Below are positions 1-3,000 of a stretch of DNA of 64,000 bases, piece after piece (the first letter of the stretch is position 1; each line of letters starts with the position of its first letter). The stretch lies in assembly GCF_024298765.1 (NCBI RefSeq), contig NZ_CP101210.1. One strand, 5' to 3'. Origin of the DNA: Escherichia coli (GTDB taxonomy: Bacteria > Pseudomonadota > Gammaproteobacteria > Enterobacterales > Enterobacteriaceae). Position numbers: made by a program.

Positions 1-3000
1 CTCAATCATACAGCTGGTGTAGAGGCTTCGGATGCTGATGCCACTATCACTCTGTCTCGTGATGTATTGAACAAAATTGTACTGAAAGAAGAGACGCTGA
101 AAGAAGCCACGGCCAAAGGAGATGTCAAAATTACTGGCAATGCGGAAAAACTCAACGAGCTGTTAGGTTATATGGATAATTTTGAATTTTGGTTCAATAT
201 AGTGACACCATAAATTTACTGCATACCGGGCAGGTATCCTGCCCTTTTTTGGTTAAAAAATGGCTGAACGAAGAAAAACGCATCACTCATGGAAAACCCG
301 CCGCGATATGGTTATTCGCGGCATGACGATTAGTTTGCCATGGTTTGCTTTTATCAATGTCAGTTTTGCATTGATAATTTTGCTGCGCCGTGTTCTGTTT
401 AATGACCTTACTCCACCCTGGTTAAATGAAAAAAGCCTTATACATTCTATTGATATATCTGCAACGGGTATTCTGCTAATTTGCAGTGGTTTACTACTCA
501 TCCCTCGGCAAAAAACATTACCTATCCAGGTGCTATTAGTTGCCCTGAGCCTGCTATGGTCATGGTGTAGTTATCACTTTATTGCGTACTGGACGCTGCA
601 GTTTGCTTATCCACTATGTGTATTATTAATGCTTAGTGGCGTTGTCGCACTTTATTTCCATACCCCATCATTGCTCGCATTTGTCATTCCCTTATGGTTC
701 ACCACTCCAATAGCGAGTCTTATGCTTAATCAACAGATCAATATTCATTTTGCTGTTGTATGGTGTATTTTTTCACTGGCGCTATATGGTGGGCGACTCA
801 TTTTGTTACGTTGGTTTGAAGAAGCATGGGTACAAAACAGTTATAACAACCAGTTAATTAATCGCCTTGATGCATTAGCACATCGTGATCCTTTAACTGG
901 GATAGCAAACCGACGTGCAATGAACAGTATCTTACACGACGCGATAGATAACGGCGGGTCATTTGCTCTTATTATGCTGGATGTCGATTTTTTTAAACGT
1001 TACAACGACACTTACGGGCATCCTGCTGGGGATCGTTGTCTAATACAAGTTGCCGACGCTCTACAGCGTTCAACTCGCCAGTCGGAGGATGTTGTTGTCC
1101 GTTATGGTGGCGAAGAGTTTGCCATCATACTTTTTAATGCAACATTGCCGGAAGCAGAGACGGTAGCAGCCAGAGTGAAGCAAGAACTTAAACTGGCAGC
1201 TATCCCACATCAGGCATCTGCTGTTAATGCATTCGTTACGGTTAGTCAGGGGATTACCTGTTCTGCTCCCGCAAAAACGGCTGAACAAATTATTTCAGAT
1301 GCCGACGCTGCGTTATACCGGGCGAAAGAAAGTGGGCGAAATCGATGGGCTTTATAAGCATTAGGGGACTGGACAGATTACGTCTCTCCTCGCTTAACAA
1401 GGGCTGACGGAGGGTAATAATTGTCTATAGCTATCTTCTTAGCGATGTCTTTCTGGTATCACATTGGATCGGTGCAATTATTTTTCCTTTAATACCCATT
1501 ATGTTAAGAAATTCAGAAACAGCTGTAATCTCATTGGTTTTTTCATTCGTCTTGATCTTCCAAGGAATCTGACTGTGCATTATTGAGAACACACTAATAA
1601 CGTGAATCGCTCCCTTGCGACGACTCTTGTCATAAGAGTACCGGAGCGTTTTTCCATCAATTGCAATGACGTCTTTATCATCTGAAGAATGGCAGTCAAG
1701 CATCCAGTTAATAAAGCACTCATGAAATTTTGCAGGACTGATACAGGATACAACTCTGGCAATGGTATCGTGAACAGGAATACCATTATCAAAATCACCA
1801 TATTGCTTCAAAAAATCGAGATGTGTTTCCCCAAAATCCTCTATATCTTCCCAGCCTTCTGCACCCGAAATAACGGCACAAATAGTCAACAGTAGAATAT
1901 CCGATAATTTATGTTCCACTTTCCAGGCTTGTCTGTAATCGGGGATAATAGAAATATGTTCCATCAATTTTTTAAGTTCCATTTTGTTCTCCTTAATTAT
2001 GTAAGGAGTATTTGATCATGTATAAGCAATAAAAAACAGCTTTAGATAATGAGGAATATCTCAATTTTTAAACATAAAATGCGAATTATTTAGTACAAAA
2101 AAGCAGCGTTACGTGATCTTTCCATGGAAAAGAGAGTAATACACTGATTTTTAACGCAGATTGCCAGTGCTACCAACACTGACAATCTGCTCACCACAAG
2201 CAACTAACAGAGGTAGTTAATCATGGCTGAACACGATATTACGCCAGAAGTCGCCATTTCCAAAACACAGCGCCGCTATAAAGTCGGCTATGTCAGAGCC
2301 CGCCACATAAACAGCAAAACCTACATGACCACGTACTACTCACGACACCCCAGCCTGAACCTTAAGGGCGACTGGCTGAAAGAGGCCGGATTTGATACCG
2401 GACGGGGTGTCACGGTGAAGATTTCGGAGGGGTGCCTGACCATCATCGCTGACAGTGACGAGGTGCAGGAACTGCGGGAGGAACTTTATCAGGTTAAACA
2501 GGTGGTTAAGGGGATGCGGAACGGGATGTTTAGTGTGCTGAACGAGAATTAAATAATAAAAAAGCCGGGGAGATTTAAAATCTTCCCGGCTTTCTTTATC
2601 ATCTAAAAAGGTAATAATCCTCTAATAGGAGAAAATTTTGTAATATCAATACCTTGTAATTTAAAGTAATTAAAAGCATCTTCTATATTGGAAAACGCAC
2701 TAATTTCTTCAGTTGCATAATCTTCGAACACTTCCATTTTATTTTCTGGTATTTTGAAAAAATAGGTATTGTATTTTTCATCCTGTTTTTTAATGGCATA
2801 TTGGAAAAAATAACTTTCACCATTTATTTCCTTTATCTCATCAAAACCTCTAACCTTACCATTCTCTATAGCAACAATTAATTTTTCAATAGACAAATCA
2901 ACCATCTATATCTATCCTCACCATTGTCCCATCAGAACGTTTAATATTTATATGAGGCAAAGAACCATGCCCTGTGCCTTTATGGTCATCATGACCATAT

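What the first reader, a model, noticed from the sequence alone, without database searches (positions are those of the whole stretch)
260..1357. Accessory membrane-bound GGDEF diguanylate cyclase at the island edge
The 365-aa protein has a ~190-residue multi-helix hydrophobic N-terminus and a C-terminal GGDEF domain with an intact RYGGEEF active site, so it is predicted to be catalytically active. It lies next to an H-repeat remnant and outside the gene order recognised from K-12, so it looks like a strain-variable addition to the c-di-GMP network. It may correspond to a strain-specific cyclase reported in some pathogenic E. coli; I cannot confirm that identity from sequence alone.
Basis: partly seen in the sequence, partly recalled or inferred. 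Interest (0 to 1): 0.5.

Follow-up and report, generated by a model that had tools for sequence, protein, structure and literature searches.

The report
Known accessory diguanylate cyclase DgcY
The gene is real and looks like a working membrane-bound enzyme that makes the biofilm signal c-di-GMP, but it is the already named, untested E. coli gene dgcY, an old resident of this chromosome site that most strains have lost.

Summary
The ORF 260..1357 (+) is real. It encodes 365 aa, or 349 aa from the RefSeq start at 308.

- **Domains:** it has a six-helix MASE5 membrane domain and a GGDEF domain. The RYGGEEF motif and all GTP- and metal-binding residues I checked are intact.
- **Identity:** it is not DgcX, which has a MASE4 domain, an RxxD I-site and sits next to a prophage. 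It is 99% identical to the SMS-3-5 GGDEF gene beside an alkyl sulfatase, which the literature calls dgcY.
- **Distribution:** it occurs in 443 of 5,426 complete E. coli genomes, and the upstream periplasmic alkyl sulfatase has the same distribution.
- **Origin:** it is not island cargo. Other Escherichia species and 87 E. coli genomes have pptA-sulfatase-dgcY followed by ansP, with yncG shown between them in SMS-3-5, and no Rhs island. Citrobacter carries an orthologue at the same site.
- **Island boundary:** the Rhs/VgrG/H-repeat island (about 1350..11970) begins 8 nt before the dgcY stop codon.
- **Loss in other strains:** K-12-type genomes lack the pair, and a full-length ISAs1 element abuts the deletion. 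I found two deletion endpoints.
- **Unusual features:** the feedback I-site reads QSED, not RxxD. A terminator-like hairpin sits 10 nt upstream of the ATG. The sulfatase pairing recurs in Leclercia and Salmonella.
- **Limits:** activity and the sensed signal remain untested. This is a known, ordinary gene of low to moderate interest.

The parts
1..213 (+). 3' end of a periplasmic alkyl/aryl sulfatase gene. It is a 49% paralogue of K-12 YjcS. The full gene is L001:9978-11954.
   Evidence: RefSeq annotation. Pfam Lactamase_B/Alkyl_sulf_dimr/Alkyl_sulf_C on orthologues. 49% identity to YjcS. A signal-peptide-like N-terminus. Same distribution as dgcY: 439 versus 436 genomes at >=80% coverage.
228..250 (+). 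GC-rich hairpin (GGGCAGG-TAT-CCTGCCC) followed by TTTTTT. It looks like an intrinsic terminator and lies between the sulfatase stop codon and the dgcY ATG.
   Evidence: Terminator scan. A hairpin is present at the same position in five Escherichia lineages, Citrobacter and Leclercia, with an A:U to G:C change in the stem. The fold z-score is only -1.6.
260..1357 (+). dgcY ORF, 365 aa. The alternative RefSeq start at 308 gives 349 aa.
   Evidence: 361/363 aligned residues identical to SMS-3-5 WP_000236738.1.
332..877 (+). MASE5 integral-membrane domain (residues 25-206). It has six transmembrane helices with very short loops. N- and C-termini are inferred to be cytoplasmic.
   Evidence: Pfam PF17178, E 5e-44. 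Hydropathy. AF2 helices 14-41, 58-80, 86-109, 116-131, 135-157 and 162-207. Charge distribution: 7 K+R in the N-terminal tail and none in loops 3-5.
812..880 (+). Stalk helix (residues ~185-207). It continues TM6 without a break into the GGDEF domain. RWFxEAW is conserved in it.
   Evidence: AF2 gives a single helix 162-207. W185, F186 and A189 are invariant and E188 and W190 are nearly invariant (>=90%) in 55 homologues.
878..1345 (+). GGDEF catalytic domain (residues 207-362).
   Evidence: Pfam PF00990, E 1e-48, covering the full profile 1-161. TIGR00254. Alignments to WspR and ImcA. Foldseek matches to WspR, PleD and ImcA.
1076..1090 (+). Position of the primary inhibitory (I) site. It reads R273-Q-S-E-D277, so the RxxD slot holds QSED.
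   Evidence: The gap-free alignment to WspR places Q274 opposite the Arg of RSSD. R273 and D277 (RxxxD) are invariant in the family.
1100..1120 (+). RYGGEEF active-site (A-site) motif, residues 281-287.
   Evidence: Read directly from the sequence. Invariant in 55 homologues.
1350..11970 (.). Rhs/T6SS island: truncated ISAs1, symE, small ORFs, Rhs, a DcrB-like gene, vgrG and Rhs fragments. It replaces yncG. It is not part of the dgcY unit; its left edge falls inside the last two dgcY codons.
   Evidence: Homology to island-free SMS-3-5 stops at window 1349 and resumes at 11971. Homology to the other Escherichia species stops at about the same point, window 1349-1357. Annotation.
1431..1982 (-). 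ISAs1 (H-repeat) transposase remnant lacking its 3' half. Its truncated end faces dgcY.
   Evidence: The dgcY|remnant junction occurs in 346 complete genomes.

Best explanation
This is dgcY, the MASE5-GGDEF diguanylate cyclase of the E. coli pangenome. A six-helix membrane-embedded MASE5 domain is joined to a cytoplasmic GGDEF domain by one continuous helix (TM6 plus stalk). By analogy with other stalk-linked cyclases and with the 6TM-GGDEF homodimer ImcA, the protein should act as a homodimer. In that model, a signal perceived in or at the membrane shifts the stalk helices and brings the two GTP-loaded GGDEF domains together to make c-di-GMP. Because the RxxD I-site slot is not canonical, classical product inhibition may be weak or absent. 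The gene is the second member of an old two-gene unit, periplasmic alkyl sulfatase then dgcY, separated by a terminator-like hairpin. Its expression probably depends on read-through from the sulfatase promoter or on a promoter I did not detect. The unit belongs to the ancestral pptA-ansP backbone. The Rhs/H-repeat island was inserted at its 3' end, and most E. coli lineages later lost the unit in deletions that abut a full-length ISAs1 element. What the data show: domain architecture, intact catalytic residues, identity to the SMS-3-5 gene, synteny and junctions. What is inferred: dimeric mechanism, enzyme activity, lack of feedback inhibition, co-transcription and the order of evolutionary events.
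For: Architecture and motifs. DxDxFKxxNDxxGHxxGD, RYGGEEF and KxxGR are all present and align without gaps to WspR. The closest solved structure is the 6TM-GGDEF homodimer ImcA (8wcn), found by sequence (E 9e-32) and by fold (E 2e-14, 362 aligned columns). Its membrane domain is required for activity (PMC10904736). Identity as dgcY: the SalmoNet2 preprint (10.1101/2021.12.20.473597) states that dgcY lies with alkyl sulfatase EcSMS35_1714 in SMS-3-5 and CE10, citing Povolotsky & Hengge 2016. In SMS-3-5 the GGDEF gene directly after the alkyl sulfatase is 361/363 identical to the window protein. Backbone status. Deletion junctions: K-12 type in 2,375 genomes; MS1718 type, which keeps only 62 nt of the sulfatase next to a full ISAs1. 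Hairpin.
Against: No enzymatic or genetic data for DgcY or its Salmonella relative YreP were found in the searchable literature. Neither candidate start codon has a convincing Shine-Dalgarno sequence, and no promoter-like site lies between the terminator and the ATG, so the gene could be poorly expressed. The GC content is low: dgcY 43%, sulfatase 46% and pptA 43%, against 51-54% for the other flanking genes and 49% for the window. That leaves room for an old horizontal origin of the segment. The primary paper that named DgcY is not held, so the name rests on a secondary source plus my own recollection of its abstract. About 2,500 complete genomes have neither the gene nor the two deletion junctions I tested; I did not examine their arrangement.
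Confidence: 0.8

Rival explanations
1. The gene is cargo of the Rhs/H-repeat island, gained horizontally by a minority of strains.
For: It abuts an ISAs1 remnant and is absent from K-12. It occurs in only 8% of complete genomes. Its GC content is low at 43%.
Against: Homology with island-free genomes covers the gene up to 8 nt before its stop codon and resumes beyond the island. 87 E. coli genomes have dgcY next to yncG with no island. Two other Escherichia species show narH..pptA-sulfatase-dgcY..ansP colinear at 91% and 87.5% nt identity without any Rhs element. Citrobacter has the orthologue at the same site. The deleted genomes carry an intact ISAs1 at two different deletion endpoints.
Confidence: 0.07
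2. It is DgcX, the highly expressed extra cyclase of the O104:H4 and enteroaggregative strains.
For: Both are non-K-12 membrane-bound GGDEF proteins of E. coli.
Against: DgcX has a MASE4 domain of ~270 aa and a canonical RxxD I-site. Its catalytic Glu residues are at 359/360, and it always lies next to lambdoid prophage DNA (PMC4287979; PMC10459773). This protein has MASE5 only, with no MASE4 match at E<=0.01. Its Glu residues are at 285/286, the I-site slot reads QSED, and there is no prophage nearby.
Confidence: 0.01
3. The gene is intact but effectively silent or non-enzymatic. It would be either a relic kept by linkage, or a scaffold that acts through membrane-domain contacts and not through c-di-GMP synthesis.
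For: A terminator-like hairpin ends 10 nt before the ATG. No promoter-like site or clear ribosome-binding site was found. Most lineages lost the gene without obvious cost. ImcA's membrane domain mediates partner binding.
Against: All catalytic residues are conserved across 55 homologues down to 33% identity. The ORF is >=99% identical in 439 genomes, and 436 genomes carry >=80% of it. Both points argue for purifying selection on an enzyme.
Confidence: 0.12
4. DgcY is the signalling half of a surfactant module. The periplasmic alkyl sulfatase acts on alkyl sulfates, and the membrane-embedded MASE5 domain senses either the amphiphilic substrate or the fatty-alcohol product, switching the cell towards aggregation or biofilm.
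For: The sulfatase and dgcY are adjacent at three different chromosomal sites: Escherichia (pptA-ansP, in tandem), Leclercia (tynA-feaB, in tandem, 40-nt gap) and Salmonella (uspF-ttcA, divergent). Citrobacter keeps a possible remnant of the sulfatase 3' end. The sensor has almost no extramembrane loops. From my own knowledge, SDS-induced c-di-GMP-dependent aggregation through SiaD is known in Pseudomonas aeruginosa.
Against: Enterobacter, Hafnia, Pantoea and Aeromonas homologues have no sulfatase neighbour. The hairpin suggests the two genes are at least partly uncoupled in transcription. No literature links alkyl sulfatases to c-di-GMP in enterobacteria. Adjacency alone does not identify a ligand.
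Confidence: 0.15

Closest known systems
DgcY of E. coli SMS-3-5 and CE10 (Povolotsky & Hengge 2016; named in the 2016 GGDEF/EAL nomenclature)
   Same: 361 of 363 aligned residues are identical to the SMS-3-5 protein. It has the same upstream alkyl sulfatase and the same pptA-side flank.
   Different: Here the last two codons read AL, not EK, and the downstream gene yncG is replaced by the Rhs/H-repeat island. The 346 genomes with this junction outnumber the 87 with the SMS-3-5 arrangement.
YreP of Salmonella enterica (typhoidal and extraintestinal serovars)
   Same: It has MASE5-GGDEF architecture and sits next to an alkyl sulfatase that is 85% identical to the E. coli one. It is also an accessory gene.
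   Different: It is only 48-50% identical. The two genes are divergent, not in tandem, and lie at a different chromosomal site (uspF-ttcA).
ImcA of Pseudomonas aeruginosa (PDB 8wcn)
   Same: It is a six-transmembrane domain plus GGDEF homodimer and the best match by both sequence and fold. Its membrane domain is required for cyclase activity.
   Different: Overall identity is about 24%. ImcA has a canonical RxxD (RPLD) slot. It is controlled by the iron-sensing partner IsmP, for which I identified no counterpart here. Whether its membrane domain belongs to MASE5 was not tested.
DgcX and DgcT (YcdT), the MASE4-GGDEF cyclases of E. coli
   Same: They are membrane-embedded sensors fused to an active GGDEF domain. 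DgcX is likewise absent from K-12.
   Different: They have a different membrane domain family (MASE4, ~270 aa), a canonical I-site and a prophage-linked location. This protein gives no MASE4 match.
DgcF (YneF) of K-12
   Same: It is a small membrane-anchored GGDEF protein.
   Different: It gives no MASE5 match and is only 28% identical, with the similarity confined to the GGDEF domain. I found no close counterpart in K-12.

Membership tests
Catalytically competent GGDEF diguanylate cyclases | GG(D/E)EF A-site preceded by Arg-Tyr | tested here: met
   RYGGEEF at residues 281-287; invariant in 55 homologues.
Catalytically competent GGDEF diguanylate cyclases | Metal- and GTP-binding residues (DxD..FKxxND..GHxxGD; C-terminal KxxGR) | tested here: met
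   D241, D243, K246, N249, D250, H254, D258, K356 and R360 are present and align to WspR without gaps.
Catalytically competent GGDEF diguanylate cyclases | Synthesis of c-di-GMP from GTP | not testable with these tools
   This needs an enzyme assay or in vivo c-di-GMP measurement. No published data were found.
Product-inhibited cyclases (I-site class) | RxxD motif five residues upstream of GG(D/E)EF | tested here: not met
   The slot reads QSED. The conserved Arg lies one residue further upstream, giving RxxxD across the whole family.
MASE5 domain proteins (Pfam PF17178) | Profile match above the gathering score | tested here: met
   150.8 bits against a cut-off of 25.2, covering profile positions 2-192 of 192.
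MASE5 domain proteins (Pfam PF17178) | Integral membrane multi-helix domain | tested here: met
   Six helices by hydropathy and in the AF2 model.
DgcY (E. coli pangenome cyclase) | Near-identity to the GGDEF gene that lies with alkyl sulfatase EcSMS35_1714 in SMS-3-5 | tested here: met
   361/363 identical, with the sulfatase directly upstream. The original locus tag in the primary paper could not be read.
DgcX | MASE4 sensor domain of ~270 aa | tested here: not met
   Only MASE5 and GGDEF are found at E<=0.01. DgcX is described as MASE4 in PMC10459773.
DgcX | Location directly beside lambdoid prophage DNA | tested here: not met
   The neighbours are the sulfatase and an Rhs/ISAs1 island; no prophage genes occur in the first 50 kb.
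Cargo of the Rhs/H-repeat island | The gene lies inside the segment that is missing from island-free relatives | tested here: not met
   Island-free SMS-3-5 and two other Escherichia species keep the gene. The break is at window 1349 in SMS-3-5 and within 1349-1357 in the other species.

The most novel reading that the evidence does not exclude
The alkyl sulfatase and DgcY form a conserved two-gene module in which the loop-less MASE5 domain senses amphiphiles in the membrane. These could be alkyl sulfates, sulfated host or bile lipids, or the fatty alcohols the sulfatase releases. The signal would be converted into c-di-GMP without classical product inhibition. The module's patchy retention in poultry-associated and extraintestinal E. 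coli, and in invasive Salmonella serovars, would then reflect a niche-specific trait.
Probability: 0.15. Interest if true: 0.55.

Novelty: already known. Interest (0 to 1): 0.25.

Why it matters
DgcY is one of the few E. coli c-di-GMP enzymes that is absent from K-12, and I found no experimental work on it. Three points help anyone mapping strain differences in biofilm signalling. First, it is an ancestral gene that most lineages deleted, not a recent addition. Second, its inhibitory site is non-canonical. Third, it travels with a periplasmic alkyl sulfatase in three genera. These give concrete hypotheses to test. For genome annotation, the practical result is that this 'GGDEF domain-containing protein' can be labelled dgcY, and that the Rhs island boundary lies inside its last two codons.

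Tried and rejected
- **Primary papers not available:** the two primary papers (PMC4686209 and PMC4686207) are not held. The DgcY name therefore rests on a secondary source and on my recollection of the abstract.
- **Literature searches:** searches for DgcY/MASE5, yreP and alkyl sulfatase + c-di-GMP + SDS gave no functional data.
- **STM4551 guess:** I suspected the Salmonella homologue was STM4551 and searched for it. The gene context (uspF-ttcA locus) suggests it is a different, accessory gene, so I dropped that lead.
- **DgcF as a K-12 paralogue:** I tested DgcF as a possible MASE5 paralogue in K-12 and rejected it.
- **Failed look-up:** the contig look-up for P0088 returned nothing.
- **Hairpin covariation:** the RNAalifold run on the hairpin mis-aligned the Citrobacter and Leclercia loops. 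Its covariation term (-0.12 kcal/mol) is weak, so the hairpin's conservation rests mainly on reading the sequences.
- **Sulfatase remnant in Citrobacter:** this is only suggestive. It is about 27 of 36 nt by eye and 7 of 10 aa, with tblastn E 9.6.
- **Not done:** I did not assign phylogroups to the carriers. The 60 exact-allele hits are largely poultry isolates.

Full report
**1. Observation**

The ORF at 260..1357 (+) exists as described: it starts with ATG and encodes 365 aa. Pfam assigns residues 25-206 to MASE5 (PF17178, E 5e-44) and residues 207-362 to GGDEF (PF00990, E 1e-48). No NCBIfam equivalog model reaches its cut-off; only the generic GGDEF domain model passes.

Hydropathy analysis gives six hydrophobic segments. 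An AlphaFold2 model built on 55 homologues (mean pLDDT 85.8) gives helices 14-41, 58-80, 86-109, 116-131, 135-157 and 162-207. The last helix runs from TM6 straight into the GGDEF domain.

The basic N-terminal tail has 7 Lys/Arg, and loops 3-5 carry no charge. This fits a topology with both termini in the cytoplasm, which the GTP-using domain requires.

RefSeq starts the gene at the ATG at 308, giving 349 aa. The evidence on the start codon is mixed, and I leave it open.

**2. Catalytic features**

RYGGEEF lies at residues 281-287. The DVDFFKRYNDTYGHPAGD stretch and the C-terminal KESGRN align without gaps to WspR. These residues are invariant in 55 homologues that reach down to 33% identity.

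The primary inhibitory site is not canonical. The RxxD slot, five residues before GGEEF, reads QSED. The family-wide conserved Arg sits one position further upstream, giving RxxxD.

The best solved relative by sequence and by fold is ImcA of Pseudomonas aeruginosa (8wcn). It is a 6TM-GGDEF homodimer whose membrane domain is needed for activity.

**3. Identity**

DgcX is described as MASE4-GGDEF, with a ~270-aa sensor domain, an RxxD I-site, catalytic Glu359/360 and a position beside lambdoid prophage DNA (PMC4287979; PMC10459773). None of these features fits this protein.

The SalmoNet2 preprint states that dgcY of E. coli was described together with the alkyl sulfatase EcSMS35_1714 in strains SMS-3-5 and CE10. 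It cites Povolotsky & Hengge 2016.

In SMS-3-5 the gene order is pptA, alkyl/aryl sulfatase, GGDEF protein WP_000236738.1, yncG, ansP. That GGDEF protein is identical to the window protein at 361 of 363 aligned residues. The window gene is therefore dgcY.

K-12 DgcF is not a MASE5 protein and shares only 28% identity, confined to the GGDEF domain.

**4. Distribution**

The gene is found in 443 of 5,426 complete E. coli genomes, almost always at >=99% identity. The upstream sulfatase has the same distribution: 439 genomes at >=80% coverage. The 60 exact-allele hits include many poultry isolates.

**5. Backbone or island**

- **Break points against SMS-3-5:** homology stops at window 1349, 8 nt before the stop codon. 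The protein therefore ends WAL here and WEK in SMS-3-5. Homology resumes at 11971, upstream of ansP.
- **The intervening 10.6 kb:** this is the island. It holds a truncated ISAs1, symE, Rhs, a DcrB-like gene, vgrG and Rhs fragments.
- **Other Escherichia species:** two species representatives are colinear from narH through dgcY at 91% and 87.5% nt identity. They continue to ansP with no Rhs element.
- **Further Escherichia relatives:** other lineages, about 91-94% identical in nt, also have sulfatase-dgcY, and the longest contig shows nhoA-yddH-pptA upstream of the pair.
- **Citrobacter:** it has a 64%-identical orthologue between yddH and pptA/yncG at the same site. A possible remnant of the sulfatase 3' end lies upstream of it.
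- **Two arrangements among E. coli carriers:** 87 genomes have the island-free dgcY|yncG junction, and 346 have the dgcY|ISAs1-remnant junction seen in the window.

**6. How the gene was lost elsewhere**

In K-12 a full-length ISAs1 element (ydcC) abuts the pptA-proximal intergenic region, 216 nt upstream of where the sulfatase would start. This junction occurs in 2,375 genomes.

In strain MS1718 the same end of a full-length ISAs1 abuts nucleotide 62 of the sulfatase gene. Up to 88 genomes keep only such a stub.

The two deletion endpoints lie next to the same end of a full-length ISAs1 element. This pattern suggests IS-adjacent deletions. It is an inference, and I did not examine the remaining ~2,500 genomes.

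The low GC content of pptA, the sulfatase and dgcY (43-46%) leaves open an older horizontal origin for the whole segment.

**7. Link to the sulfatase**

The neighbour is a signal-peptide-bearing paralogue of YjcS, 49% identical.

- **Adjacency elsewhere:** the sulfatase-dgcY pair recurs in Leclercia (tynA-sulfatase-dgcY-feaB) and in Salmonella (divergent pair at uspF-ttcA, sulfatase 85% identical).
- **No adjacency:** the pair is not found in Enterobacter, Hafnia, Pantoea or Aeromonas.
- **Hairpin:** a GC-rich hairpin with a T-run lies between the two genes at 228-250, ending 10 nt before the ATG. A hairpin occupies the same position in all the tandem pairs and in Citrobacter.
- **Promoter:** no promoter-like site lies between the hairpin and the ATG. 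Expression by read-through is plausible but untested.

**8. Verdict**

It is wrong on two points: the gene is DgcY, not DgcX, and it is ancestral backbone that most lineages lost, not an island-borne addition. No experimental data on DgcY or YreP were found. The gene is already known, and its interest is low to moderate.

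Noticed in passing
window 2898..3221 and 3184..7560 (-): The Rhs gene is frameshifted immediately after its core-end motif DPIGLAGG. The +1 frame continues GGINLYQYAPNPLSWIDPLGL into a ~100-aa toxin tip (the ORF at 2898..3221), followed by a small ORF at 2603..2905 that may be an immunity gene. This is either a real pseudogene or a 1-nt assembly error; RefSeq shows the same structure for strain 104.
   Followed up: partly
window 228..250 (+): A terminator-like hairpin lies between the sulfatase stop codon and the dgcY ATG. It is conserved in position across Escherichia, Citrobacter and Leclercia, with stem changes that keep the pairing.
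   Followed up: partly
L013:6001-7215 (strain MS1718); L002:8953-8964 (K-12): Two different deletion endpoints abut the same end of a full-length ISAs1/ydcC element. One is 216 nt upstream of the sulfatase start (2,375 genomes). The other is 62 nt inside the sulfatase gene (up to 88 genomes).
   Followed up: partly
L018:7905-7934 (Citrobacter sp. Awk 4): A stretch of about 36 nt just upstream of the Citrobacter dgcY orthologue resembles the last codons of the sulfatase gene. This hints that Citrobacter once had the tandem pair. The match is not statistically significant on its own.
   Followed up: partly
L095:2736-6128 (Salmonella enterica): Salmonella carries a divergent alkyl sulfatase / MASE5-GGDEF pair at the uspF-ttcA locus. 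It is reported as enriched in typhoidal and extraintestinal serovars (10.1101/2021.12.20.473597). The sulfatase is 85% identical to the E. coli one, but the cyclase only 48%.
   Followed up: partly
window 2223..2552 (+): A SymE-family type I toxin gene sits directly beside the ISAs1 remnant at the inner edge of the island.
   Followed up: no
window 11172..12110: yncG and yncH lie between the Rhs locus and ansP in K-12, and yncG lies next to dgcY in SMS-3-5. Both genes are missing here, and the island replaces 742 bp that include yncG.
   Followed up: partly
window 45658..46659 (+): The gapC-type glyceraldehyde-3-phosphate dehydrogenase gene ('gap') is annotated as intact in this strain. From my own knowledge, K-12 carries it as a pseudogene.
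   Followed up: no
window 1..1357 and L001:9445-9672: pptA, the sulfatase and dgcY all have 43-46% GC, below the 50-54% of the flanking nar, nhoA, yddH and ansP genes.
   Followed up: no
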